Below, piece by piece: positions 3,620-57,714 of a stretch of 64,000 bases of DNA. A program made the position numbers and the translations under genes. The stretch comes from Malacoraja senta. Lineage: Eukaryota. The notes under the pieces were generated by a model that was not told where the DNA came from, made no database searches, and saw nothing but the letters and a program-made list of their open reading frames with translations. Numbering within the stretch: position 1 is the stretch's first letter; each line of letters begins with the position of its first letter. The DNA is taken from positions 994,001-1,058,000 of the forward strand of contig CM075993.1 of assembly GCA_038087875.1 (NCBI GenBank), given 5' to 3'.

Positions 3620-4096
3620 AAAACGTCACCTATCCATGTTCTCCACAGATGCTGCCTGACCCGCTGAGTTACTCCAGCACCTCTGTGAAACGTCACCTAT
3701 CCATGTTCTCCACACAGATGCTGCCTGACCCGCTGAGTTACTCCAGCACCTCTGTGAAACGTCACCTATCCATGTTCTCCACAGATGCTGCCTGACCCGC
3801 TGAGTTACTCCAGCACTCTGTGAAACGTCACCTATCCATGTTCCGGCAGCATCTATGGAGCGAAGGAAATAGGCAACGTTTCGGCCCGAAACCCTTCCGG
3901 GTTTCGGCCCGAAACGTTGCCTATTTCCTTCAGGGTTTCGGCCCGAAAGGTTGCCCATTTCCTTCGCTCCACAGATGCTGCCTGACCCGCTGAGTTACTC
4001 CAGCGTTACTCTGTGAAACGTCACCTATCCATGTTCTCCACAGATGCTGCCTGACCTGCTGAGTTACTCCAGTACTCTGTGTCCTTTTTTGTAAAC
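3620..4096 (+). repeat. Tandem amplification (~66-69-bp units) of the PLE terminal segment, with an embedded fold-back piece, running into the gap
   Basis: gaaacgtcacctatccatgttctccacagatgctgcctgacccgctgagttactccagcac recurs near 3620, 3687, 3756, 3822 (partial) and 4015. Confidence 0.85.
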
Positions 4097-4296
4097 NNNN
4101 NNNNNNNNNNNNNNNNNNNNNNNNNNNNNNNNNNNNNNNNNNNNNNNNNNNNNNNNNNNNNNNNNNNNNNNNNNNNNNNNNNNNNNNNNNNNNNNNNNNN
4201 NNNNNNNNNNNNNNNNNNNNNNNNNNNNNNNNNNNNNNNNNNNNNNNNNNNNNNNNNNNNNNNNNNNNNNNNNNNNNNNNNNNNNNNNNNNNNNNN
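4097..4296. other. Assembly gap (200 N)
   Basis: Run of N. Confidence 1.
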
Positions 4297-6301: not shown

Positions 6302-6608
6302 GTTGTGTGTTGGAACATATGACAATAGAACACTCTTGACTCTCTGGGAAGAGAAGAAGCCAAATGTCATTGAACGTAGGCTGACTGTTGATGACGTTGT
6401 TCTGTTCTCTCTTAAGTATCTGTCCAACTTTCCTCCAAAGCCACCAGTTGATGCTGCTTGCACCATCCCTCCTGGGAGTGACGTCCAGATGACAACTGGT
6501 CAGGTTGGAATAGCCTCATCACACATCCTTTTGTATCTTTCAACTCAGATTTATAAACTGAGCCTCCCTTCTTTGAACCGTGGCTTTAGAAACCTCCACA
6601 GAAAAATT

Positions 6609-8033
6609 CACCTGGATCAACATGCATCACCTATCATGCATCACCTGGATCAACATGCATCACCTGGGTCAACATGCATCACCTGGGTCAACATGCATCA
6701 CCTATCATGCATCACCTGGGTCAACATGCATCACCTGGATCAACATGCATCACCTGGATCAACATGCATCACCTGGATCAACATGCATCACCTGGATCAA
6801 CATGCATCACCTGGATCAACATGCATCACCTGGGTCAACATGCATCACCTATCATGCATCACCTGGGTCAACATGCATCACCTATCATGCATCACCTGGG
6901 TCAACATGCATCACCTGGGTCAACATGCATCACCTGGGTCAACATGCATCACCTATCATGCATCACCTGGGTCAACATGCATCACCTGGATCAACATGCA
7001 TCACCTGGATCAACATGCATCACCTGGATCAACATGCATCACCTATCATGCATCACCTGGATCAACATGCATCACCTGGATCAACATGCATCACCTGGGG
7101 TCAACATGCATCACCTATCATGCATCACCTGGATCAACATGCATCACCTGGATCAACATGCATCACCTGGATCAACATGCATCACCTGGATCAACATGCA
7201 TCACCTGGATCAACATGCATCACCTATCATGCATCACCTGGATCAACATGCATCACCTGGATCAACATGCATCACCTATCATGCATCACCTGGATCAACA
7301 TGCATCACCTATCATGCATCACCTGGATCAACATGCATCACCTGGATCAACATGCATCACCTGGATCAACATGCATCACCTATCATTGCATCACCTGGAT
7401 CAACATGCATCACCTATCATGCATCACCTGGATCAACATGCATCACCTGGATCAACATGCATCACCTATCATGCATCACCTGGATCAACATGCATCACCT
7501 GGATCAACATGCATCACCTGGGTCAACATGCATCACCTATCATGCATCACCTGGATCAACATGCATCACCTGGATCAACATGCATCACCTGGATCAACAT
7601 GCATCACCTGGATCAACATGCATCACCTGGATCAACATGCATCACCTATCATGCATCACCTGGATCAACATGCATCACCTGGATCAACATGCATCACCTA
7701 TCATGCATCACCTGGATCAACATGCATCACCTATCATGCATCACCTGGATCAACATGCATCACCTGGATCAACATGCATCACCTGGATCAACATGCATCA
7801 CCTATCATGCATCACCTGGATCAACATGCATCACCTATCATGCATCACCTGGATCAACATGCATCACCTGGATCAACATGCATCACCTATCATGCATCAC
7901 CTGGATCAACATGCATCACCTGGATCAACATGCATCACCTGGGTCAACATGCATCACCTATCATGCATCTCCTGGGTCAACATGCATCACCTGTGTCAAC
8001 ATGCATCACCTGGGTCAACATGCATCACCTATC
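6609..8033. repeat. Minisatellite of interleaved 19-bp (CACCTGG[A/G]TCAACATGCAT) and 14-bp (CACCTATCATGCAT) units
   Basis: Directly visible; explains the three overlapping low-complexity + strand ORFs. Confidence 0.97.
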
Positions 8034-8694: not shown

Positions 8695-8936
8695 GCAGAC
8701 AAAAGTGCTGGAGAAACTCAGCGGGTGCAGCAGCATCTATGGAGCGAAGGAAATGGGCAACGTTTCGGATCGAAACCCTTCCGGGTTTCGACCCCGAAAC
8801 GTTGCCTATTTCCTTCAGGGTTTCGGGACGAAACGTTGCCTATTTCCTTCGCTCCATAGATGCTGCTGCACCTGCTGAGTTTCTCCAGCACTTTTGTCTA
8901 CCTTCGAATTTCCAGCATCTGCAGTTCCTTCTTAAA
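8695..8936. mobile_element. Fold-back (head-to-head) pair of PLE termini, subfamily B
   Basis: gacaaaagtgctggagaaactcagcgggtgcagcagcatctatggagcgaagg... mirrored by ...ccttcgctccatagatgctgctgcacctgctgagtttctccagcacttttgtc. Confidence 0.85.
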
Positions 8937-15016: not shown

Positions 15017-17565
15017 CAGACTGTGGTGGCTTGTTTTAAGTCAAGATTTCCAATACATCGCAGACTGATGTATAAACTCTAGAACATGTACGTTACATAT
15101 TGAATGACAAACAGACTCTGATCGAGAACGTTTCATACCATCACAAACATAATTTAACCAAATCTTGTTGCTATCAATTAATCTGGAATTGCAACAAATC
15201 CATGAAAACACAAGAATTACATTAAGTTTTAAATACAAACGGAATTCTTGACTTTTTATCTGAAAAGCAGCAGCTTGGACCTAGTTGCATTATCAAATAT
15301 TGAATGCCTGTTTCCTTTTGTCTCATTACAATCGGAGTCTTCAGTCCACATGTTTAATCTTGTCACTAAGTGCTGGAGGAACTCAGTGGGTCAGGCAGCA
15401 TCTGTAAATGGAGCTGGAAGACAAGACTGGGGCAAAGGCAAGAGTTGAGGGAAGAAGTGGCTGTGGTAGATCATGGTTGAACTGTGGGAACCACAAAGAG
15501 GGATCAGTCACAGACGCCTGTCGGAGAGAGGAGGAGAACTTCTTCAAAGTCGACCTAAGTGAGTTCCTCCAGTACTTTGTGTTTTGCTCAGGAATCCAGC
15601 ATCTGCAGTTTCTTGTGTCACCATGTTCTTTTTATCATTTGCATCTTTTTTTATTCTTGTCTACCATCTATCGTACGGGGACGTAGCTTCATCACTGACA
15701 TTGTAAGTTCACAAAATCCATAAGCTCAAATTAATATCAGAATAGCACCACAGAAACTAGTTTTCATCCAACTGTGGGTGTCAATGAATCAACCGTGTTG
15801 TGATTATTCCCACGAGAGAGAATCCAATGGATAACAATATTTCCCTGGTGATAATCTATTAAATCCAGATCCCCTTTCTATTCAGAGTGAATATAATCCC
15901 CAACATAAGACAGCTCAGTTCCACGATTTTGGAATTCCAACGGCTAAACTTGTATCACATTCTGATATAAAATGTGCCACTGGCCTTCATCAGTCAGGGA
16001 ATTGAGTGTAGGTACACAAAAATGCTGGAGAAACTCAGCGGGTGCAGCAGCGTCTATGGAGCGAAGGAAATAGGCAACGTTTCGGGCCGAAACCCTTCTT
16101 CAGACAATTGAGTGTAGGTGTTGGGAGGTTGTGTTACAGTTGTACAAGACATTGATGAGGCTGAATTGGATGATTGTGTACAGTTTTGGTCCAGCAGTCA
16201 TAGGAAAGATGACACTAAGCTGGAAGAGTACGAGGATGTGTTCAGTACTCAATTTGCTGAGTTCTATGTAGAGGTTGGGAGTACCAGAATCTGTTTCCTC
16301 AGTGTTCAGGAGGCTGAGGGATGATCTTGCAGAGGCAGGTCCAATAACAGACATTTGGACAGGTGCATGATCAGTAAACATTCAGAGCGATATGGATCAG
16401 GAGGCAAGTGGGATGAGCTGACATGGGGCATCTCGCTGGCACGGAGGAGATGGGCCAAAGGGCCTGTTTCTGTGCCGTGAATGACTCTATGTAAGGGAGG
16501 AGGAGCTTCACTTCCATTGTGTCAAACTCCACTCACTTCCGAAGATCAACTCATTTTCTCTACAAGAAGGAATGGGTGACGTTTCAGTCTGATGAAGGGT
16601 CTCGACCCAAAACATCACCCATTCCTTCTCTCCAGAGATACTGCCTGTCCCGCTGAGTTATTCCAGCAATTTGTGGCGATCTTCGGTTTAAATCAGCATC
16701 TGCAGTTCCTTCCTACTCATTTTCTCTACGTGGGGCCACACACCGTCCAGTTGGATGTGACATACATAAGGCAAGGCATTGGGCTGGTGCCTAAGGAACT
16801 GCCCAAGGAACTGTGATGAGCAAGAGCCTCTGAGGTCAGACTTCACTTAGTGCAATGATGCAAACGGTGAATTGGCATTCAAATCTGGAGAGGTGAATTG
16901 CAATCAGCTGGTCTGTCAATACAATGATGCAGACTGATGAGTACTGATGGAAAACTATCAGTTTTCATGGCCACTGGCCCCCATGGACTTAGCAGTAGGA
17001 TTAACATACACAAACGGTGCAGAGATCCCTGGGTTTCTGTCAGTAATTCAGCACACCATTGCAGACCCAACCATCTACAACTAAAAGCACTGACTTGATT
17101 AGAATTTAAACTTTTTGTGAACTCATCGCACTGTAAAATATCCTGAAAGCTTATACAAGTTACATCTGACTTTTTTATTTTAATGCTAACCCATAATTAC
17201 CGCTCTGGAAATTATATGGATGAAAAAAAAATGTATTTTATGTTTTTGCATCATTATTTTATTGATAGATATTTCAAACTAAGATGCTTAAAATATGAAT
17301 TTAATTGATATTTCAGATTTTCCATTAATCATTTTGATTATGTACAAGTTTTTTATTCAGCTCGTTCTATAGTAGCTAAAAGGTTAATTAGACATTGATT
17401 CCTGGTAAATGTATGCAAAGTTTCTTTAGCACAATGTACAGCTCAGGCAACTGCTGAAGAAGGGCTACATAACAGACAACTAAGAGAACATAGTATAGTA
17501 CAGGGCGAGGCCCTTCTGGCCACAGTGAACTTGATGCCAAGTTAAGCTAATCTCTGCTTGAACAC

Positions 17566-19729: not shown

Positions 19730-20180
19730 AGGAAGAACTGCAAATGCTGGAAAAATCCAAAGGTAGACAAAAATGCTGGGGAAACTCAGCGGGTGAGGCA
19801 GCATCTATGGAGCGAAGGAATAGGTGACGTTTTGGGTCGAGACCAGGAAGCATCTATGGAGTGAAGGAATAGGTGACGTTTCGGGTCGAGACCAGGAAGC
19901 ATCTATGGAGCGAAGGAATAGGTGACGTTTTGGGTCGAGACCAGGAAGCATCTATGGAGTGAAGGAATAGGTGACGTTTTGGGTCGAGACCAGGAAGCAT
20001 CTATGGAGTGAAGGAATAGGTGACGTTTCGGGTCGAGACCAGGAAGCATCTATGGAGTGAAGGAATAGGTGACGTTTCGGGTCGAGACCCTTCCGGGTCT
20101 CGACCCGAAACGTCACCTATTCCTTCGCTCCATAGATGCTGCCTCACCCGCTGAGTTTCTCCAGCATTTTTGTCTCCCTT
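19730..20180. repeat. PLE fold-back element whose left arm contains 6 tandem 49-bp units
   Basis: gcatctatggag[c/t]gaaggaataggtgacgttt[c/t]gggtcgagaccaggaa starting at 19801, 19850, 19899, 19948, 19997, 20046; inverted arm ~20095-20180. Confidence 0.9.
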
Positions 20181-30457: not shown

Positions 30458-32254
30458 TAACACTATCCTAGACACACTAGGGACAATTTACACTTATACC
30501 AAGCCAATTAATCTACAAACCTGGAATGTGGGAGGAAACCGGAGATCTCGGAGAAAAGCCATGCGGTCACGGGGAGGGTGTACAAACCCCATACAGACAG
30601 CACCCGTAGTCGGGATCGAACCAGCGCTGTAAGGCAGCAACTCTACCGCTGCGCCGCCCTATGTGTCTTCACGAGAGGAAGATGGAAATATCATGTGAAA
30701 ATTGGAAGAAAAGCAGGATATTGGAAATGATATAAAAACTATTTGTGCACGACATTCTGCCAACTCTCCATCACGAGAACAATCACTAAAAGCAAAGAAC
30801 CTCCCTGTTTGAATGTTCCTGCTAAACTTTTAAAGACATTCCTTTGCTTTTGTTTCATTAAATTACAGATTCACGGCTTGCCAAGCTGTTGTAATGTAGA
30901 GGAGTCACACAGGCTGCTGCTGCTCGCAGTTGATGAATACAAATGAAACTCTTGTGTATTATATATATTCCTTTCTTTCAGGACTGCTGCTGCTGCTGTG
31001 ATTAGGCATGTTCTGAGAAATCTGTCGGCCTCTCACTAGTAAATGGAGGAAGCCCTTACTTGTTGCTAATTCCCACTGCCCCTCCACCATGCCATATGTG
31101 GGCTAAGCTTGCAGAGCTCCACGACAAGGCTGCTACTGCCTGGGTTTGATAACCCTCTGGCCCTCATCTGCTGTGGAGGAGGGACAACTAAAAGCATTAA
31201 TCACACTTTCTCACCACCAATTGCTGCATTTGTTTTTATACCTAATGCAAGCATATTCTGAATGCGCACAGGCAAGTTGAAAATGTCTCCTGCCTGCCCA
31301 TTCAATCTGGCCAAGAATCGTGGACCTATTGACATCAACGGTTCACACAGGCCATGAGTCAGCTGTGGCAGGTTACAAAGAATATGGCACGACTGTGCAG
31401 TGATAAGTTGTTCAAATCACTCTCACTGGAGTCCAGGATGGCTCTGGAGGTAAAGGCACCATCTGCTTCCTTTAAATTAAAAAAAACCACATCACGTCAT
31501 GTGATGAGCAGACTCTGGTTAAAGAGGCTGTTGTCAGCAGAACAATGAATGTTGTGACGAGCTCTGCCCCCAATCCCCAACCTGCCATTGTCCAAGACCG
31601 CTCCTCTGCCTAATGCGAGGCATTGTCGAGTTTTTCCAGAACTGAGTATTCATTGCAATTCTTTCTTGCAAAGATAGGTTAGGGACTTTCCCTTTCATTT
31701 CAAGAAAGCCAAAGCAATTTGTCGCTCAAATCCATCAAATGTCTTTGAGAGGTTGAGCAAGACACCAGAGGTTGGAGTAACTCAGCGGGCCAGGAGGCAG
31801 CACCTGTGGTGGGAATGGACAGAGGATGTTTCTGGTTGAGATCCTTATTCAATCTGTCTCCTTGAGAGGTTACACCTTTCCATTGTTTCTTCCATTCCTG
31901 AACAGACATCGTCCTCAAGTCTTATAGCTTCACACTAATTACTAACCTCACGTAAGTGACCAAGCAACTTGCAAACTAAGTTGTGGACGTCGTTTAGTTA
32001 TGGATCGAAGGTGGTATTAATCCCTGATAAAGTGGCTTCATTTCCCCCCAAATTAATGGAATGCAATGTTGCAAATTAATCAAAGTAGTGGGATGCAAGG
32101 AGAAGGAACAAGGTCAGACTTTTCCCAATTTCCAATTTAAGGATGATGAGGTCAGTTAGTTCCAGCCAAGGTCATGTATTGTGAGTGGCAGCCTTGGCAG
32201 AAGAGAACAAGTAATCTCAGTGGGTCTTTGCCAGTTCCAGAGCAAAACCATTGA

Positions 32255-44440: not shown

Positions 44441-44548
44441 ATAGGCAGATGGACTCAGACAGCATCCAATTTGACAAGACAGTGAAAATAAAAAAGGCAG
44501 TGCCCAAAACACAATTATATAACAATTGTTTGGTGGTGGTGGATAATG

Positions 44549-45480
44549 GTTTGGTGTGGTGGATAATGAAGTCGATTTTCAAAGTCTACAGAGAGATTTA
44601 GGCCATTTGGAAGAGTGGGCTGAAAGATGGCAGATGGAGTTTAATGCTGACAAATGTGAGGTGCTACATCTCGGCAGGACAAATCAAAATAGGACGTACA
44701 TGGTAAATGGTAGAGAATTGAGGAATGCAGTTGAACAGAGGGATCTAGGAATAACTGTGCATAGTTCCCTGAAGGTGGAATCTCATGTAGATAGGGTGGT
44801 AAAGAAAGCTTTTGGTGTGCTGGCCTTTATAAATCAGAGCATTGAATATAGAAGTTGGGATGTAATGTTAAAATTGTACAAGGCATTGGTGAGGCCAATT
44901 CTGGAGTATGGAGTACAATTTTGGTCGCCTAATTATAGGAAGGATGTCAACAAAATAGAGAGAGTACAGAGGAGATTTACTAGAATATTGCCTGGGTTTC
45001 AGCAACTAAGTTACAGAGAAAGGTTGAACAAGTTAGGTCTTTATTCTTTGGAGCGCAGAAGGTTAAGAGGGGACTTGATAGAGGTCTTTAAAATTATGAG
45101 CGGGTTAGACAGAGTTGACGTGGATAAGCTTTTTCCATTGAGAGTAGGGAAGATTCAAACAAGGGGACATGACTTGAGAATTAAGGGACAGAAGTTTATG
45201 GGTAACATTAGGGGGAACTTCTTTACTCAGAGAGTGGTAGCTGTGTGTAATGAGCTTCCAGTGGAAGTGGTGGAGGCTGGTTCGATTTTATCCTTTAAAA
45301 ATAGATTGGATGAGTATATGGACGGGAAAGGAATGGAGGGTTATGGTCTGAGTTCAGGTAGACGGGACTAGGGGGAAGTATTTTTTTTTTTCTTCTTCTT
45401 TTTTTTAATGTTCGGCACGGACTTGAAGGGCCGAGATGGCCTGTTTCCGTGCTGTAATGGTTATATGGTTATTATATGGT
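44549..45480 (+). mobile_element. Young CR1-type LINE, 5'-truncated; 271-aa uninterrupted RT C-terminal ORF
   Basis: ORF 44556-45371 (WQMEFNADKCEVLHLG...LYKALVRPILEY...QRRFTR); 3' tail (ATATGGTT)n. Confidence 0.95.
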
Positions 45481-45764
45481 AAAAAGACGCTTGTAGTCAT
45501 CCAATAGGGCCATTGCTGAGGTAGGATATTTGAGAGTGCCTCTGTGAAGTATCTTAGCGTGTTGCACAGGATTAAAAGTGCAATGGTAATATAGCTTATA
45601 TTTGCAAAATACATAAATACAAAGATTAAAAGGTGCAAGAAGGATTTTTAATTTTTGTATACCTTCTGATAAGGAAATTACATGCTGAGAAGATGGTGCA
45701 TTACTCAAGGAAAGAGACAAAATGCCAGAGTAACTCAGCGGTTAGGCAGCATCGCTGGAGGACA

Positions 45765-48098
45765 TGGATAAGTGACGTTTTGGGTCAGGATCCTTCTTCA
45801 GACTCAATATGGATAGGTGACATTTCGGGTTGGGACCCTTCTTCAGACTCAACAATGATAGGTGACATTTTGGGTTGGGACCCTTTGTCAGACTCAATAT
45901 GGATAGGTGACATTTCGGGTTGGGACCCTTCTTCAGACTCAATATGGATAGGTGACATTTCGGGTTGGGACCCTTCTTCAGACTCAATATGGATAGATGA
46001 CATTTTGGGTTGGGACCCTTCTTCAGACTCAACAATGATAGATGACATTTCGGGTTGGGACCCTTCTTCAGACTCAACAATGATAGATGACATTTCGGGT
46101 TGGGACCCTTCTTCAGACTCAATATGGATAGATGACATTTCGGGTTGGGACCCTTCTTCAGACTCAACAATGATAGATGACATTTCGGGTTGGGACCCTT
46201 CTTCAGACTCAACAATGATAGATGACATTTCGGGTTGGGACCCTTCTTCAGACTCAACAATGATAGATGACATTTCGGGTTGGGACCCTTCTTCAGACTC
46301 AATATGGATAGGTGACATTTCGGGTTGGGACCCTTCTTCAGACTCAACAATCATAGATGACATTTCGGGTTGGGACCCTTCTTCAGACTCAACAATCATA
46401 GATGACATTTCGGGTTGGGACCCTTCTTCAGACTCAACAATGATAGATGACATTTCGGGTTGGGACCCTTCTTCAGACTCAACAATGATAGATGACATTT
46501 CGGGTTGGGACCCTTCTTCAGACTCAACAATGATAGATGACATTTCGGGTTGGGACCCTTCTTCAGATTCAACAATGATAGATGACATTTCGGGTTGGGA
46601 CCCTTCTTCAGACTCAATATGGATAGATGACATTTCGGGTTGGGACCCTTCTTCAGACTCAACAATGATAGATGACATTTCGGGTTGGGACCCTTCTTCA
46701 GACTCAACAATGATAGATGACATTTCGGGTTGGGACCCTTCTTCAGACTCAACAATGATAGATGACATTTCGGGTTGGGACCCTTCTTCAGACTCAACAA
46801 TGATAGATGACATTTCGGGTTGGGACCCTTCTTCAGACTCAACAATGATAGATGACATTTCGGGTTGGGACCCTTCTTCAGACTCAACAATGATAGATGA
46901 CATTTCGGGTTGGGACCCTTCTTCAGACTCAACAATGATAGATGACATTTCGGGTTGGGACCCTTCTTCAGATTCAACAATGATAGATGACATTTCGGGT
47001 TGGGACCCTTCTTCAGACTCAACAATCATAGATGACATTTCGGGTTGGGACCCTTCTTCAGATTCAACAATGATAGATGACATTTCGGGTTGGGACCCTT
47101 CTTCAGACTCAACAATCATAGGTGACATTTCGGGTTGGGACCCTTCTTCAGACTCAACAATGATAGATGACATTTCGGGTTGGGACCCTTCTTCAGACTC
47201 AACAATGATAGATGACATTTCGGGTTGGGACCCTTCTTCAGACTCAACAATGATAGATGACATTTCGGGTTGGGACCCTTCTTCAGACTCAACAATGATA
47301 GATGACATTTCGGGTTGGGACCCTTCTTCAGACTCAACAATGATAGATGACATTTCGGGTTGGGACCCTTCTTCAGACTCAACAATGATAGATGACATTT
47401 CGGGTTGGGACCCTTCTTCAGACTCAACAATGATAGATGACATTTCGGGTTGGGACCCTTCTTCAGATTCAACAATGATAGATGACATTTCGGGTTGGGA
47501 CCCTTCTTCAGACTCAACAATCATAGATGACATTTCGGGTTGGGACCCTTCTTCAGATTCAACAATGATAGATGACATTTCGGGTTGGGACCCTTCTTCA
47601 GACTCAACAATCATAGGTGACATTTCGGGTTGGGACCCTTCTTCAGACTCAATATGGATAGATGACATTTCGGGTTGGGACCCTTCTTCAGACTCAACAA
47701 TGATAGATGACATTTCGGGTTGGGACCCTTCTTCAGACTCAACAATGATAGATGACATTTCGGGTTGGGACCCTTCTTCAGACTCAACAATGATAGATGA
47801 CATTTCGGGTTGGGACCCTTCTTCAGACTCAACAATGATAGATGACATTTCGGGTTGGGACCCTTCTTCAGACTCAACAATGATAGGTGACATTTCGGGT
47901 TGGGACCCTTCTTCAGACTCAACAATCATAGATGACATTTCGGGTTGGGACCCTTCTTCAGACTCAACAATGATAGATGACATTTCGGGTTGGGACCCTT
48001 CTTCAGACTCAACAATCATAGATGACATTTCGTGTTGGGACCCTTCTTCAGACTCAACAATGATAGATGACATTTCGGGTTGGGACCCTTCTTCAGAT
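45765..48098 (-). repeat. Tandem array of ~51 x 45-bp units, each a PLE-derived hammerhead-like core on the minus strand
   Basis: Unit gactcaacaatgatagatgacatttcgggttgggacccttcttca; reverse complement contains CTGAAGA-A-GGGT-ccca-ACCC-GAAA-TGTC. Confidence 0.95.
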
Positions 48099-51000
48099 TC
48101 TTGGTACTCAAGATTTTCCAACATCTCATCACGGAATCAAAAAATAAGCAGTCAGAGTACATCCAGTATTGAAAATGAACCTGATGTGGTTAACAACCTA
48201 ACAGTGTGTGAACACTCATCTAATGGCAAAGTAAAAATGTTTTTTTAATGCAACATGATAAATAGGTACTATTTAGGGAAGATTGGTTTTAACACGATGA
48301 GGCAGAGATCATGCTCAGTAAACAAGCTGAATCTGCCAATGGGAAAAATGACCAAGGATCAGAGACTCAAGCAAACCAGCCCCCCCCCCCCCCCCCACCC
48401 CACCCCACCCCCAATCGATTCCATCTACACCACAGTGCCTCAGGAAAGCAGCAAACATAATCAAAGATCATTCACATCCAGGTCACTCTCACACAGAGGT
48501 TCATAAGTGATAGGAGCAGAATCAGGCCATTCCACCCATCCAGTCTACTCCGCCATTCAATCATGGCTAATCTAGCTCTTACTGTTGGTGGTAGAGTCTG
48601 GGACAAAGAGACTAATATTTGAATTCAGAGATAAAAGAGGAATGAAGTGAGGAAACATTTCCACCTACAAGTGGCGATCAAAATGTGACCATTTTAACCG
48701 CAGTTGGAAATTGCGAATGTTGAGTTGAGACTGGTTGTTTTTTGCTAACCAAAGGAGTTAAGGAATATGGGGAAAGGGCAGTAGTTGGCGTGAGATCACA
48801 GGTCAACCAGGCCATCATATAATTTCATCTTCATTCTGGCCCGAAACATCACCCATCCATGTTCTCCAGACATGCTCTTCTACAGATGCTGCCCGACTTG
48901 CTGAGGTACTCCAGCACTTTGTGTCTTTTTCCTTCATCTACTGGTGACATCAATGTTCTCGGGGGCTAAATGGCCTTCTTCCAAACTTCCTACTGCAATC
49001 CAACTAGCAAGGGATTATCTGTCAACAGTCAACGTGTCAACAAGAATCAACAATTTCCACACATCAGATCTTTGTGCAGCTTTGGTGGCAGTGAACCCCC
49101 TGGTGATATTGACGCTCTATACTGACACTATCTAAAGCTGCATCGTCACACAAGTATGCTGCAACATTTTATAACCTTTTAAACTGATTTAGCTTTTATT
49201 GAGTTTATAACTTACATTCCAAGCTCTGGAAAAAGATGAAATTTTAATGAGGTTTAAAGCTGAAATGGCCTGGCCTGCTGAGTAGGCTTTTATGTGACCT
49301 AGAAATGATGAGATTATTTGAAATGCTTATCTCCTCACATTAAAATAAAGCAAGAGAGGCCTGCGACGGTTTGAACACTCACTGGGCCTACTCCTACAAA
49401 CCCAGTGGACAAACATCAAGCAGTGTCCCAGGTTCCTCCAGAGCCTGAGCTGAAACACCACATCACAATCAGGAAGCAGGAGCAAAGACCAATTCTACAC
49501 CCTTCCCAACATCTGCAGACTCCTGGATCTCTGTAAACCTCTCTCAGCCCACCTCTCCTCATCTCTGAGACCCCCTCCAATCTCACGCTTCTCTCTTACA
49601 GCCTGCTGCAACCACACACCTTGTTCCCCTGTCCTCGTGCACACCCTTCAATGTGCTGATCTAGCAGCAGTAGATATATCGTGCAGACATCAGCAGACGA
49701 GATCTTTCCTGAACGTCTCCAAGCCCTTGAAGATGGCCGTTCCACCCTCCTCTATCAGCCTATATATAATCTGACCTATTGTGGTGTGGTGCCAAATCCA
49801 AGCCGAGATCATTGATGCTGCCGTGAAAGAGCTCTTGACTTGTAAGCATATAAAGGATGCTGGTATTTTGAGTTTGAGGGAAAAGTCCCGACTTGAAACG
49901 GCATCAGTCCACAGATGCTGCCCGACCCGCTGAGTTCCCCCAGCAGTGTGCTTTTGCTTTACATAAACGTAACTCGATTTGCTTTCCACTGCACTTATCA
50001 GTCGCAATCCTCTGCACAAGACTGGCTTCCAACTGGCACCATTCTGCTATGCAACTCTGACCGGAGATGAGAAGCAGCTCACTGATGGGAGAAGCAGTGC
50101 CGTTCAGAGGACAGGCAGACTCAGAAGGGCATCACTGAGTTTCTGGAAGTATAAATGTCCCTGCTGTTTACATTATGCCACTGAAGTGGAAACTGCCACT
50201 AGAACAACAGTGCCACGTGCAATGCGGGTAAGAATCGCTGAGAAATGGTTTATGGTATCATCTTTGACACCATTAATGCTAAACTACAGCTGTCAAGCAG
50301 ATTGAAGTAATATTAAAAAACTTGAATTGGTCACACTTCATTGCAAAGAGGCTGCACTTGGCCAACCTAATGGCTCTCATAAGAGTCACACTCAAATAGA
50401 AATACACAATTTTTTCCAATCCCATTATCACCTAAGCACTGATGTAGAATGCATTCCAGCACTGGCCTTTGGGATGAATAGAAACCAGTCATTCAGAAGA
50501 TCATCTGCCCATTCACACAATATGCCTTTAAACAAAAGTGCGGAGAATACGAACATCAGCAGGAGGTGAATCTTGGGGAAGGACTGTGAGCTGCCAGCTC
50601 TGGCTGTGCCAGCAGCACTGTGAAATAGACAGGCAGACAACCCAAAGCAATGCATTAACCTGCATTAGATACAAAACGCTGGAGTAACTCAGCGGGACAG
50701 GCAGCATCTCTGGAGAGAAGGAATGGGTGACGTTTCTATGAGTTACTCCAGCATTTTGAGTCTATCTTCGGTGTAAACCAGCATCTGTAGTTCCTTCCTA
50801 CACATTTACCTGCATTAGTCTACTCAAGGCATGGCTTGCAGCCATGTTCCTGCAGGGTACTTCTGATTTCAGAAATGGAAATACTTCTATTTATTAAACT
50901 TTAATGTTGGAAAATGCAAAGAACTCTTTACAGGAGCATGTCAGAGTTTGATACTGAGCCACCTGTAGGTATTGACCAACTCACTACTGTCCAAAAGCTT

Positions 51001-51470: not shown

Positions 51471-51719
51471 AGGGCCTGCCCCACTTTCAGGACCTAATTC
51501 ACGACCTCTGCCGAGTTTGCCCTTGACTCATACTCGCAACATGGTCGTCACGAGGTCGTAGGAGGTCGTCACTAGGTCGTAGGTAGGTCGTAGCAGGCCG
51601 TGTTGCTAGTCGTAGGTACTCGTGGCATCAAGTAGGTCGGGGCGTTTTTTCTAGCCTGATGAAAAATGTCCACGAGTAAAAAAGGTGGTGAATTAGGTGG
51701 TGAAAGTGGGACAGGACCT
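51471..51719. mobile_element. PIF/Harbinger-like MITE
   Basis: TTA|AGGGCCTGCCCCACTTTCA...TGAAAGTGGGACAGGACCT|TTA; sibling of 14784-15016. Confidence 0.85.
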
Positions 51720-51722
51720 TTA

Positions 51723-52575
51723 GGAGGAAGGATTCCTCCTACAGGGATGAGGTGGAGCAGCTGACAGGGTGGTGTGGAGAAAATAACCTGCTCCTCAACA
51801 CCTCAAAGACCAAGGAGCTCATAATTGACTACAGGAAGAAGAAAACGGACATTACACCACTAATCATCGATGGGGACTGTGTGGAAAGGGTGGCGGATTT
51901 CCGCTTCCTGGGAATCCACATTGAGGAGGACCTGACTTGGAGCGTGAACACCTCTGCGCTGCTGAAAAAGGTCCAGCAGAGATTGTACTTCCTGAGGGTG
52001 CTCAGGAAGAACAACATCGCCCAGAGACTGCTGCTGTCCTTTTATCGGTGCTCAATAGAGAGCATCTTAACATACTGTGTATGCGTGTGGTACACCAGCT
52101 GCACAGCGGCTAAGAGGAAAGCGCTCCAGAGGGCTATTGACAACGCCCAGAAGATTATCGGCTGCCCTCTCCTCACCTTGGAGGACCTACACAGTTCCCA
52201 CTGTCTCAAAAAATCCCAGAAGATCATAAAGGACATTTTCCACCCCGGTCACTCCCTGTTTGAACTGCTGCCGTCAGGCAGACGGTACAGATCAATGAGG
52301 ACAAGGACAAACAGACTCAAAAACAGTTTTTATCCCACAGCAATAACTACACTTAATGTAGCCACCAAATGAGTACAGGTGTGCTACACACCAAAGGGAC
52401 TGGGAAATCCACAGAAGAATGGGGTTTTTTTTTTCATGTTATTTATTTTAGTTGTTTATCTTAGACTTTTGCTCTTAGAAAATGTGTGCACTGACTGGTT
52501 GGCATTTCTAATGTCGTTGTACATGTTTACATGTTATAATGACAATAAAGTATTCATTCATTCATTCATTCATTC
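51723..52575 (+). mobile_element. Rex1/Babar-like LINE, 5'-truncated; 206-aa uninterrupted C-terminal ORF
   Basis: ORF 51752-52372 (WCGENNLLLNTSKTKELIIDYR...FRFLGIHI...QRLYFLRVLRK...LLPSGRRYRS); UTR with AATAAA and (ATTC)n tail. Confidence 0.92.
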
Positions 52576-54719
52576 CAACAGTGGTGAGTGGAGAGAGGCA
52601 GAACTTTAGCCCAGTGACTGTGAAGAGATGGGGGCATGTTTTCAGGTGGGGGTGCTGCAGGGGTTGGAGGTGGATGCTACTCCCCAACATCTGCTGACCT
52701 TGCCCCGTAAGCTTATATGTATGGGTAGCAGTGTTGACAATCCTGGAGCACCTGCTGTTCACCTTGTAAACAATCCAATATATACACACAACGCTGGAGG
52801 AACTCAGCGGGACAGGCAGCATCTCTGGAGAGAAGGAATGGTCTGAATGGGTGACGTTTCGGGTCGAGACCCTTCTTCAGACAATCTAGATTGCAAACAA
52901 TCCATTTCCTGCATTCAGGTCCCTTCAGCTTCCATCACTTTCCCAATCCTTGTCTGTAATTTAATGGGCAGCAAGTCTGGGCTGGATTTACCCAGCTAAT
53001 TGTTAGACTTGGTGCCCGCTAATCTTTGATATTACAGGCAGTATGATTTCGCTAAATCCAGTTCTCTCATCCATTCTGGATATCAAGCGGAACAGATCTA
53101 CTGATTTGTGGGATGGCAGGAACCAGACATGGTGTTTGGGAGGGGGGGGGGAGGGGCGGGGCGGGGAGGGGAGAGGCAAAGACTGGCAAGTTGCCCCTAA
53201 CGTATAGGGAGTGAATGCAAAGCCGGTCACATTTAGTTTACAGTTTTAGAGATCGGCCCTCCCGAGTCCACACCGACCCGTTGATCACCATTCACACTGG
53301 TTCTGCATTCTCATAGAAACATAGAAATTAGGTGCTGGAGTAGGCCATTCGGCCCTTCGAGCCAGCACCTGCCATTCAATATGATCATGGCTGATCATCC
53401 AAAACCAGTACCCCGTTCCTGCTTTCTCCCCATATCCCTTGAGTCCCCAAGAGCTAAATCTCAACCTCTCCCTTCTGCACTAGGGGGTAATTAAGAGACC
53501 AATTAACCCACAAACCTTCACATCTTCGAGATGCGGGAGGAAAACCAGAGCACCCTGAGGTGACCCACGATGTCACGGGGAGAACATGCAAACTCCACAC
53601 AGACAGGAACTAAGGTCAGGATTGAATCCAGGGCTCTGGCACTGAGGCAGCAGCTCTACCAGCAGCACTACTGTGCTAAAAAAGTGTTCGTTTTTTTTAA
53701 ACCAGTAAATTAAAAGTGTCATCTCAATATTTTAAAGAACAAAGCCTTTCTAGCATTCCCACCTGATGATAAACTTTAAATCGATATTAATAAAAACAAC
53801 AGTTATTGCCACTTTATTTTGGGAACTTGAATAGGTTACTGTGTTTTCTGTATGACAACAGTTTCAGTTATCAGTTTAGTTTATTGTCACGTGTACCGAG
53901 GTACAGTGAAAAGCTTTTGTTGGGTGCTAACCAGTCAGCGGAAAGACAATACATGATTACAATCGAGCCGCTTACAGTGTACAGATACATGACAAGGGAA
54001 TAACGTTTAGTGCAAGGTAAAGCCAGTAAAGTCTGATCAAGGATAGTCCGAGGGTCGCCAATGAGGTAGACAGTAGTTCAGGACTGCTCTCTGGTTGTGG
54101 TAGGATGGTTCTGTGGCAGTGATTGGAACCGAGAGGAGTCACCCTGCTTTCTTCATGGAAAATCCTGAGAGCATGGAAATCACAGTCGATATGTCAACCT
54201 GAGCTGGAGGAACTCAGCGGGTCAGGCAGCATCTGTGGAGGGAATGGACATGTGATGTTTTGGGTCGGGACTCTTCCTCTGGCCAAAGGAATGGAATCCA
54301 CCCATCACTTGCCAGGCTCTGTCCTGCTCCCACCTCTATATTCCGGCTTTTTCCCCCCTACTCCATCAGTCTGAGGCAGGATCCCAACCCAAAACGTCAT
54401 CCGTCCATTCTCTCCACATATGCTGCCTGACCCGCTGAGTTCCTGCAGCACTTGTGTAGGATGGAACTGCAGATGCTGGTTCAAACCAAAGTTAGACACA
54501 AAATGCTGGAGTAATTCAGCGGGCCAGGCAGCATCTCTGGAGAAAAGGAAGAAGGGTCTCAAACCAAATCGTCACCTATTCCTTTTCTCCAGAGATGCCG
54601 CCCGACCCACTGAGTTCCTCCAACACTATGTTTTGCTCTGGCTTACGTATCGACAGTTCTTTCTATGCTGTCAGGAACTCCAATGAAGACAGCTGGTTGA
54701 CTCCTCTGAAGTTTGATCA

Positions 54720-55449: not shown

Positions 55450-56577
55450 CATATAACCATATAACCATATAACCATAACAGCACGGAAACAGGCCATCTC
55501 GGCCCTTCAAGTCCGTGCCGAACATTTAAATTTTTTTTAAATTATTATTATTTTTTTTTAAATTAAAAATAAATACTTCCCCCTAGTCCCATCTACCTGC
55601 ACTCAGACCATAACCCTCCATTCCTTTTCCGTCCATATACCCATCCAATCTATTTTTAAAGGATAACATCGAACCTGCCTCCACCACTTCCACTGGAAGC
55701 TCATTCCACACAGCTACCACTCTCTGAGTAAAGAAGTTCCCCCTAATGTTCCCCCTAAACTTCTGTACCTTAATTCTCAAGTCATGTCCCCTTGTTTGAA
55801 TCTTCCCTACTCTCAATGGGAAAAGCTTATCCACGTCCACTCTGTCTAACCCGCTCATAATTGTAAAGACCTCTATCAAGTCCCCTCTTAACCTTCTGCG
55901 CTCCAAAGAATAAAGACCTAACTTGTTCAACCTTTCTCTGTAACTTAGTTGCTGAAACCCAGGCAACATTCTAGTAAATCTCCTCTGTACTCTCTCTATT
56001 TTGTTGACATCCTTCCTATAATTAGGCAACCAAAATTGTACTCCATACTCCAGAATTGGCCTCACCAATGCCTTGTACAATTTTAACATTACATCCCAAC
56101 TTCTATATTCAATGCTCTGATTTATAAAGGCCAGCACACCAAAAGCTTTCTTTACCACCCTATCTACATGAGATTCCACCTTCAGGGAACTATGCACAGT
56201 TATTCCTAGATCCCTCTGTTCAACTGCATTCCTCAATTCGCTACCATTTACCGTGTACGTCCTATTTTGATTTGTCCTGCCGAGATGTAGCACCTCACAT
56301 TTGTCAGCATTAAACTCCATCTGCCATCTTTCAGCCCACTCTTCCAAATGGCCTAAATCTTTCTGTAGACTTTGAAAATCTACTTCATTATCCACAACAC
56401 CACCTATCTTAGTATCATCTGCATACTTACTAATCCAATTTTCTACACCTTCATCCAGATCATTGATGTACATGACAAACAACAGTGGACCCAACACAGA
56501 CCCCTGAGGCACCCCACTAGTCACCGGCCTCCAACCTGACAAACAGCCATCCACCATTACTCTCTGGCATCTCCCAT
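55450..56577 (-). mobile_element. Young CR1-type LINE, 5'-truncated; 335-aa uninterrupted RT ORF
   Basis: ORF 55583-56590 includes GVPQGSVLGPLLF and YADDTK; almost identical to 44549-45480; (AACCATAT)n tail on the + strand. Confidence 0.95.
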
Positions 56578-57714
56578 TCAATGTGATCATGGCTGATCAT
56601 CCCCAATCAGTACCCCGTTCCTGCCTTCTCCCCATATCCCCTAACTCCTCTATTTTTAAGAGCCCTATCTAGCTCTCTCTTGAAAGCATCCAGAGAACCT
56701 GCCTCCACCGCCCTCTGAGGCAGAGAATTCCACAGACTCACCACTCTCTGTGAGAATAGATGTTTCCTCATCTCCGTTCTAAATGGCTTACCCCTTATTC
56801 TTAAGTGTGTCCCGAGTGTGTGTAGGATAGTGTTGACGTGCGGGGATCGCTGGTCGGCACGGACTCGGTGGGCCGAAGGCCCTGTTTCCGCGCTGTATCT
56901 CCAAACTAAACTAAACACAGCGCGAACGTGCAAACTCCACACAGGCAGCATCTGAGGTCAGGATCGAGCCCGGGTCTCTGGCTCTGTGAAGCAGCAGCTC
57001 TACCTGCTGCAGGGCGGTAGGTAACACCCTCGAGCAAGGTAAAGGCGGGAGGTTGTCCAGTGGTGGTCTGGCCTAGACTCACCTCATGCAGGTACAGCGA
57101 GGCCACCAAAACCACAACGCCCTCTATCTGTAAGACCTCCACCGCTCACTGACGGCAAACACAGGCCTAGGCCTGAGCCTCCGGCCTGAGCCATTATTTA
57201 AACCACTGAAAGTCAATATACTCTGACCCTCATTAAATGGAAAGATCATTGCCAGGTTCACCTGTGGATACCCTTAAACAATAATCAATAAACATTCTGC
57301 TCAGGAATATAATTACCTTGGAAATGTCATAAATTCTTGATACTTTCTCAATGAAGTCGAAGCTTTTACCAACTTCTCTCACGGGGCTGAATGTGGTAAA
57401 AATGCAAATGTCTGCCCGCCACTAAAAGAGACATTTTTATCTTAATGTGGAAGAATCATCGCTCCTCTTGACTCTGGCTGCTGGCAATGTGGGATTCTAG
57501 TGCTGTGGTCATCAGTTATGTGTGGTTTATGCTCATACACTGCGCCACTTTAACGCACTCTGATATCACACTCATAAATTGACTCAAACACTAGCATCTT
57601 AAACAGAACAGAATGAGGGAAATACTGATCTATTTCCCCTCGCTGTGTGGACAGGGAGACACACTGTGATTCTCAACCGCCCACTGTTCATCAACGTGGG
57701 CAAGAATAAAGAGG

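What the first reader, a model, noticed from the sequence alone, without database searches (positions are those of the whole stretch)
45765..48098. 2.3-kb satellite in which every 45-bp unit is a hammerhead ribozyme core
Seen: the minus-strand unit reads ...gagu-CUGAAGA-A-GGGU-ccca-ACCC-GAAA-UG-UC-aucu..., about 51 times. It grows out of an ordinary PLE terminus at 45713-45800, and little beyond the core was amplified. Established: PLE termini carry minimal type I hammerheads with a tiny palindromic stem III that work as dimers, and tandem hammerhead repeats are known from newt satellite 2 and metazoan retrozymes, which have longer monomers. Inference: a minus-strand transcript would juxtapose adjacent cores and might be cut into 45-nt monomers or circles. 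Caveats: stem III is AUGU rather than ACGU (wobble pairs only) and stem I is about 2 bp, so the array may be catalytically dead and simply slippage-derived.
Basis: partly seen in the sequence, partly recalled or inferred. Interest (0 to 1): 0.7.

Follow-up and report, generated by a model that had tools for sequence, protein, structure and literature searches.

The report
Hammerhead-motif minisatellite grown from transposon stub
Fifty-one 45-base repeats in a probable skate genome nearly all keep the core motif of a tiny self-cutting RNA, but the array sits inside one old jumping-gene insertion and likely grew there by ordinary DNA repeat expansion, so it is probably a passenger and not a new miniature RNA replicon.

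Summary
The array is real: 51 units of 45 bp plus one full, core-mutated copy of a very common ~95-nt hammerhead-bearing repeat (74 fragments in this window, likely Penelope ends). 48 of 51 units keep the whole core. All 51 have AUGU for the family's ACGU stem III, a CpG-type decay that predates amplification. The origin points to DNA-level growth in place. One 8-bp target duplication brackets the whole array. The unit seam lies about 10 nt past the cut site and matches target bases. The insertion's ends sit at the same site in three other organisms. An 11-unit block is exactly duplicated. Two other arrays of the same repeat in the window lack the CUGANGA box. Read depth fits a single locus. 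Activity is open: AUGU costs 4.3 kcal/mol, yet the model reaches the double-hammerhead fold more easily here than in intact family copies. No RNA data were found. Tandem hammerhead units of 51-972 bp are already in print, and this scan noted similar 38- and 43-bp arrays in other genomes. Verdict: a transposon-derived minisatellite of a known kind; about 7% that it is cut in vivo.

The parts
45802..48096 (-). Array of 51 x 45-nt units, each 28 nt of minimal hammerhead core plus a 17-nt linker
45712..45801 (-). Terminal full-length copy of the ~95-nt dispersed repeat; keeps ACGU but has G12>A and a stem II mismatch
48105..48112 (-). 5' copy of the 8-bp target-site duplication (CTTGAGTA on the minus strand)
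   Evidence: chance 134 of 19899 random 25-nt window pairs
45702..45709 (-). 3' copy of the 8-bp target-site duplication
47152..47646 (-). Units 11-21, first copy of an 11-unit (495-bp) higher-order block
   Evidence: 0 of 20000 shuffles of unit order reach it
46657..47151 (-). Units 22-32, exact second copy of that block
48069..48096 (-). Hammerhead core of unit 1 (C3 at 48096 to C17 at 48069); predicted cut 3' of 48069
   Evidence: consensus in PMC4209133 Fig. S3
3621..3843 (+). Control: 69-bp x 3.3 array from the same repeat, without the CUGANGA box or stem II
19796..20089 (-). Control: 49-bp x 6 array from the same repeat, without the CUGANGA box

Best explanation
The array is a single-locus minisatellite that lies inside one old insertion of a hammerhead-bearing, likely Penelope-derived end-piece, and it likely grew in place by DNA slippage and unequal exchange, carrying the ribozyme motif as a probably idle passenger. 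Steps. (1) A ~95-nt stub inserted with an 8-bp target duplication (shown in sequence; Penelope identity inferred from the motif). (2) Its first ~38 nt were duplicated once with a seam that includes target-like bases, likely a stutter during or after insertion (seam shown, timing inferred). (3) One unit acquired two CpG-type transitions, ACGU>AUGU in stem III and CG>CA in loop II (shown by comparison with family copies). (4) That unit expanded to 51 copies, with block duplication and polar drift of variants (pattern shown, mechanism inferred). (5) No selected RNA function: if transcribed, the double hammerhead would form rarely because stem III is four pairs with two G.U (predicted, untested).
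For: One TSD brackets array plus terminal copy; 3 of 14 near-full solo copies also show flanking repeats of 10 bp or more. The seam lies about 10-11 nt after C17 and ends in TTGAGT, which matches the TSD, so it was not made by cut-and-ligate. Contigs of organisms B, C and D run from the unique 3' flank into the terminal copy (to 45769, 45774, 45741), and those of C and D run from the 5' flank into the first core, so the insertion is older than these lineages while the units are 97.8% alike. Units 11-21 equal units 22-32 with four variant units in register, 0 of 20000 shuffles. The ancestral-like CCAT allele clusters near the terminal copy (p=0.001; ACC allele p=0.04). ACGU is in 20 of 29 solo copies with a complete core region and in all 9 intact ones; AUGU is in 2 of 29. 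UG at this position is in 0 of 56 rows of the published min-HHR alignment (my count). AUGU costs 4.3 kcal/mol against ACGU, and P(stem III) falls from about 1e-3 to about 2e-6 in a dimer. Four units fold worse than 195 of 200 shuffles (z=+1.8), unlike the self-paired retrozyme circles of PMC7229834. Two arrays of the same repeat lack the CUGANGA box. The depth ratio of 38.5 against 31.6 expected from this array alone leaves little room for other loci. Of the four private substitutions in the array, three hit the conserved boxes and one hits stem II.
Against: 48 of 51 units keep the full core, and the G12 CpG survives in 49 of 51 against 15 of 29 solo copies. The folding model does not show the array to be worse than its family. 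The gap to the double-hammerhead fold is 17.1-28.2 kcal/mol (median 18.8, 46 adjacent pairs), against 20.5-48.4 for the 9 intact solo copies doubled in silico, and undoing all three changes gave 17.2 against 17.6. AUGU is still self-complementary through G.U pairs. Five units have a linker change that turns a stem I G.U into A-U. The 32-nt motif folds at -5.6 kcal/mol, which nominally passes the -5 cut-off that Li et al. used for 'active'. The 11-unit duplication could be an assembly effect; no long reads were seen. No PLE open reading frame links to the repeat in this window.
Confidence: 0.8

Rival explanations
1. Accidental retrozyme: the same in-place origin, but read-through minus-strand RNA forms cis double hammerheads (stem III between neighbouring AUGU, stem I closed by the 17-nt linker), perhaps with help from the PLE protein, and is cut into 45- or 90-nt pieces in vivo.
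For: The double-hammerhead fold is nested and geometrically possible, and is closer to the ensemble than in family baselines. 48 of 51 cores are intact, so there are many sites. An anole PLE hammerhead cleaves only with protein (PMC11167929).
Against: Stem III has two G.U pairs and stem I is U-A plus G.U. The 2-bp helix I cases in the published alignment are G-C pairs. The MFE pairs the CUGA box with the cut site. Even intact min-HHR dimers cleave poorly in vitro, and 1 of 9 Xenopus retrozyme dimers cleaved. No host gene was found in the window.
Confidence: 0.08
2. Mobile mini-retrozyme: the array is a reverse-transcribed concatemer of a 45-nt circular RNA, inserted in one event.
For: The whole array lies between one pair of target duplications, and the units are 97.8% alike.
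Against: The array ends in a diverged full-length stub that is orthologous in three other organisms. The seam matches this locus's own target bases. Depth fits one locus. The seam is absent elsewhere in the window. A circular 45-mer is barely structured (-2.3 kcal/mol).
Confidence: 0.04
3. The copy number or the 11-unit duplication is partly an assembly artefact of a shorter or longer array.
For: Long, near-identical tandem arrays are error-prone (general knowledge), and the window has one 200-N gap at 4097-4296. A second sample of organism A (X9) held only 0.14 of the query's words though its 3' flank is identical.
Against: X1 depth ratio is 38.5 against 31.6 expected. There are ten unit types with a polar pattern.
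Confidence: 0.08

Closest known systems
Minimal type I hammerheads in pLTRs of metazoan Penelope-like elements (Cervera and de la Pena 2014, PMC4209133; parts 1-2 of 4 of the main text, plus passages and part 2 of 3 of the supplement)
   Same: CUGANGA plus one extra base, G10.1-C11.1, GAAA-NN-UH with no loop III, short helix I; dense dispersed solo copies; inverted pairs.
   Different: Here the core is reiterated 51 times at 45-nt spacing. Positions 15.2-16.2 are UG, seen in 0 of 56 rows of their Fig. S3 by my count. No PLE ORF is in the window.
Vertebrate non-LTR retrozymes as defined by Li, Clavereau and Pollet 2026 (bioRxiv 10.64898/2026.07.22.740005; parts 1-3 of 5 read; supplements closed)
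   Same: Tandem repeat with a hammerhead in each unit, derived from a PLE end; they propose local amplification of a PLE terminus followed by unequal crossover; units 51-972 bp, up to 300 units, one chondrichthyan included.
   Different: The unit is 45 bp, slightly below their minimum. It is at one locus with no sign of mobility. Their closed supplement may list chondrichthyan families like this one.
Expressed metazoan retrozymes, including the axolotl repeats (Cervera and de la Pena 2020, PMC7229834; passages)
   Same: Type I hammerheads in head-to-tail repeats, up to 62-mers in a coral.
   Different: Those have canonical hammerheads, 150-450-bp units, many loci, shown cleavage and highly self-paired circles. 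This unit folds worse than shuffles and has no expression evidence.
Transposon-derived minisatellites, e.g. the 52-bp SINE/tRNA-V minisatellite of Xenopus (PMC10794172; passages)
   Same: A ~50-bp piece of a dispersed retroelement amplified in place, attributed to unequal crossing over.
   Different: The amplified piece here happens to hold a hammerhead core; chromosomal position is unknown.

Membership tests
PLE minimal hammerhead (min-HHR) | Core C3-A9, G12-A15.1, U16.1, H17 | tested here: met
   48 of 51 units complete with stem II; core list from PMC3088659
PLE minimal hammerhead (min-HHR) | Extra base after A9 and G10.1-C11.1 pair | tested here: met
   G-C in 10 of 10 rows
PLE minimal hammerhead (min-HHR) | Palindromic 15.2-16.2 giving a Watson-Crick dimer stem III | tested here: not met
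   AUGU in 51 of 51 units, middle pairs G.U only; the family has ACGU in 20 of 29
PLE minimal hammerhead (min-HHR) | Helix I of at least 2 bp | tested here: inconclusive
   U-A plus G.U in the major unit; U-A plus G-C in 8 units and U-A plus A-U in 5. No covariation in a 10-row alignment
PLE minimal hammerhead (min-HHR) | Lies in the pLTR of an element with RT and GIY-YIG ORF | not testable with these tools
   No whole genome held; no GIY-YIG hit among 86 frames scanned. PLE identity is inferred from the motif and from unchecked earlier notes
PLE minimal hammerhead (min-HHR) | Self-cleavage as a dimer | not testable with these tools
   Needs an in vitro assay; the folding model does not discriminate
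Non-LTR retrozyme | Tandem repeat with at least 2 consecutive hammerhead units, motif MFE below -5 kcal/mol (operational rule of Li et al.) | tested here: inconclusive
   Consecutive cores yes; MFE -5.6 but in an inactive fold; their descriptor was not seen
Non-LTR retrozyme | Multi-locus family that spreads by retrotransposition | tested here: not met
   Depth ratio fits one locus; array lies in an old orthologous insertion. Rests on one low-depth run
Non-LTR retrozyme | Highly self-paired monomer of about 150-450 nt | tested here: not met
   45 nt; z=+1.8 for four units; circular monomer -2.3 kcal/mol
Non-LTR retrozyme | Expressed as linear and circular RNA | not testable with these tools
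   No RNA run available to lay
Transposon-derived minisatellite | Unit is a sub-fragment of a dispersed element, at the element's own site | tested here: met
Transposon-derived minisatellite | Signs of DNA-level turnover (block duplication, interspersed variants, polarity) | tested here: met
Transposon-derived minisatellite | Length polymorphism between individuals | not tested
   Needs long reads or PCR

The most novel reading that the evidence does not exclude
Minisatellite expansion turned a lone, dimer-dependent hammerhead into a 51-mer that pairs up in cis, so read-through RNA is diced into 45/90-nt pieces or circles: a retrozyme caught at birth, with a unit shorter than the 51-bp minimum in the one survey read, working through a G.U-wobble stem III.
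Probability: 0.07. Interest if true: 0.6.

Novelty: new member of a known kind. Interest (0 to 1): 0.25.

Why it matters
Under the best reading it is a clean, well-resolved example of the step that Li et al. propose (a PLE end seeding a hammerhead tandem by local amplification), and a warning that motif-plus-tandem rules can file passenger minisatellites as active retrozymes. If it did cleave, it would set a lower bound on retrozyme unit size and show how such RNAs arise from neutral DNA turnover. The test is cheap because the natural variants (ACC, GAAT and G12>A units) give built-in controls.

Tried and rejected
Whole-genome search: no genome is held, so other loci were judged only from contig depth and joints. 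Rfam: no hammerhead model matched; the weak mir-4850 and U4 hits (E 3.4-7.4) are chance. Expression: no RNA holder listed, which is no evidence either way. The low share of X9 (0.14) is unexplained; X9 was laid only on the 3' side. Whether relatives carry the array could not be seen. One contig of organism D spans terminal copy, seam and unit at flank-like depth (45772-45844, depth 6.4 against 6.2), but it has 30 reference letters on one side, under the tool's 31-letter rule, so it is only a hint that the first duplication is old. Coding reading: the array is open in one frame per strand because 45 is a multiple of 3 and those frames lack stops. The SH3_TNRC18 Pfam score had 0 significant stretches and is a repeat artefact. 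Host gene: 15 plus 71 open frames gave only RVT_1 and ALKBH8_N above cut-off; short exons would be missed. The promoter scan is for bacterial promoters and says nothing here. 'Dead by folding energy' was tested and rejected as an argument. Covariation on a 10-row alignment gave no compensatory change. In one search my slice of the 69-bp unit was offset; one search repeated the test on the whole array. Lunse et al. (min-HHR dimers) is not held; only its title was seen in a reference list. Literature searches listed no paper on a 45-bp hammerhead array in a cartilaginous fish; most subscription papers and bioRxiv supplements are not covered.

Full report
Observation. The array is as described. 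TRF gives 45773-48097, period 45, 51.7 copies, 96% matches and no indels. On the minus strand there are 51 units of exactly 45 nt followed by one full copy of a dispersed repeat. Each unit has CUGAAGA, one extra A, a 4-bp stem II, GAA, AUGU, C17 and a 17-nt linker. This matches the min-HHR consensus in Fig. S3 of PMC4209133 except for the palindrome. 48 of 51 units have the complete core, one has a stem II mismatch and two are core-broken. Rfam has no matching model. The terminal copy keeps ACGU but has G12>A, so it fails the core consensus of PMC3088659.

Context. A profile built from seven window copies finds 74 fragments of the repeat in 64 kb with the array masked, and 0 in the reversed window. 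Six of the 74 are units of the two smaller arrays, and many lie as inverted pairs. Earlier unchecked notes on the same genome call the animal a skate, and several notes on other shark and skate genomes call this repeat a Penelope end. I could not test the PLE link: no genome is held, and no GIY-YIG domain appears among 86 frames scanned. Of 29 fragments that cover the whole 28-nt core, 9 are intact, all with ACGU; overall ACGU is in 20, ACAU in 4 and AUGU in 2. This is the pattern of CpG decay (inference from the substitution types). The array unit differs from the family at two such sites, stem III and loop II, in all 51 units, so a decayed genomic copy was amplified.

Origin. An 8-bp direct repeat flanks the array plus terminal copy (48105-48112 and 45702-45709). 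Random 25-nt window pairs share 8 bp in 134 of 19899 cases, and 3 of 14 near-full solo copies have flanking repeats of 10-14 bp. The unit follows the element for about 10 nt beyond C17 and then reads TTGAGT into the next core, which matches the target duplication. A seam there cannot come from ribozyme cutting and ligation, which would be seamless at C17. Contigs from three other organisms, about 92-96% alike in the flank, run from the unique 3' flank into the terminal copy (3 of 3 other organisms laid). Two of three run from the 5' flank into the first core, and the third starts at 48103. So the insertion is old, while the units are 97.8% alike. The order of variants shows an exact 11-unit block twice in tandem (0 of 20000 shuffles) and ancestral-like alleles enriched near the terminal copy (p=0.001 and 0.04). 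Both are expected from unequal exchange and slippage (established minisatellite behaviour, recalled; also invoked in PMC10794172) and not from copying a 45-nt circle. In run X1 the major unit is at 38.5 times flank depth against 31.6 expected from this array alone. This is rough (flank depth 4, and X1 may be the source sample), but it argues against a multi-locus family.

Is capture of the core special? Probably not. 29 of 74 fragments start at model positions 2-3, just before C3, and loose ends in four runs cluster there too. Two other arrays of the repeat in the window (69 bp x 3.3 and 49 bp x 6) contain no CUGANGA. One search lists low-depth joints that go back over the core with periods of about 33-54 nt and different seams in all four runs. 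These look like independent stutters at other loci, but the reference held only the core, so only core-bearing ones could show, and the tool warns that such joints often come from repeats. If breakpoints were uniform, only 4 of 51 possible 45-nt pieces would hold the whole core; the sharp 5' edge of the stubs removes that rarity.

Could it cut? Adjacent units can be drawn as a nested double hammerhead. AUGU/AUGU is 4.3 kcal/mol weaker than ACGU/ACGU, and the stem III probability falls several hundredfold, from 1.3e-3 to 2.2e-6 in a dimer. UG at this position is absent from 56 published rows, one of which has CA (my count). The MFE pairs the CUGA box with the cut site, and four units fold worse than 195 of 200 shuffles. 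Against a verdict of 'dead': the gap to the active fold for 46 natural adjacent pairs (median 18.8 kcal/mol) is smaller than for each of the 9 intact solo copies doubled in silico (20.5-48.4), and undoing all three changes gains nothing (17.2 against 17.6). Nearest-neighbour energies omit the tertiary core and protein help, so they do not decide the question. The prior is low all the same. Intact min-HHR dimers cleave poorly in vitro (PMC4209133), the anole PLE ribozyme needs protein and is dispensable for insertion in vitro (PMC11167929), and 1 of 9 Xenopus tandem dimers cleaved. There is no expression evidence either way.

Comparison and novelty. It works like a transposon-derived minisatellite. 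Its unit is a decayed member of the min-HHR class that fails the Watson-Crick palindrome feature. By the operational rule of Li et al. 2026 it might be counted as a non-LTR retrozyme (units 51-972 bp, up to 300 copies, one chondrichthyan sampled), and they already propose local amplification of PLE ends. It fails the multi-locus and self-paired-monomer features of the expressed retrozymes (PMC7229834). Their supplement was closed and may hold similar families. This scan has noted 7 x 43-bp and 11 x 38-bp arrays of the same kind in other genomes (unchecked AI notes). What stands out here is only the length of the array and how cleanly its history reads.

Verdict. Observation confirmed; interpretation partly supported. 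Best explanation 0.80: in-place minisatellite with a passenger hammerhead motif. Cut in vivo about 0.07-0.08. Mobile 45-nt retrozyme 0.04. New member of a known kind; interest 0.25.

Noticed in passing
window 3842-4083 and 8697-8900: Two similar nests of inverted and 34-bp duplicated pieces of the second subfamily (GUU cut triplet) of the repeat; the first is continuous with the 69-bp array and lies next to the 200-N gap at 4097-4296.
   Followed up: partly
window 19764-20174: Inverted pair of stubs whose minus arm holds six 49-bp units beginning inside stem II; G12 varies between G and A among units.
   Followed up: partly
window 6608-8030: 1.4-kb minisatellite of 19/14-bp subunits (periods 19, 52, 71), open in all three plus-strand frames.
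   Followed up: no
window 16013-16105, 31759-31855, 52781-52882: Solo stubs flanked by 10-14-bp direct repeats, likely target duplications.
   Followed up: partly
run X11, joint 48094 to 48052: A low-depth contig of organism D repeats the same seam but has two changed letters at C3-U4; if orthologous, the first duplication is old and its core is broken in that lineage.
   Followed up: no
window 55586-56596 (-), 51704-52369 (+), 44547-45371 (+): Retroelement pieces: RVT_1 hit, ALKBH8_N hit (a domain I recall at LINE ends) and a 274-aa frame without a Pfam hit.
   Followed up: no
whole window: At least 39% of the window is repeated within itself, and no host gene exon was found.
   Followed up: partly
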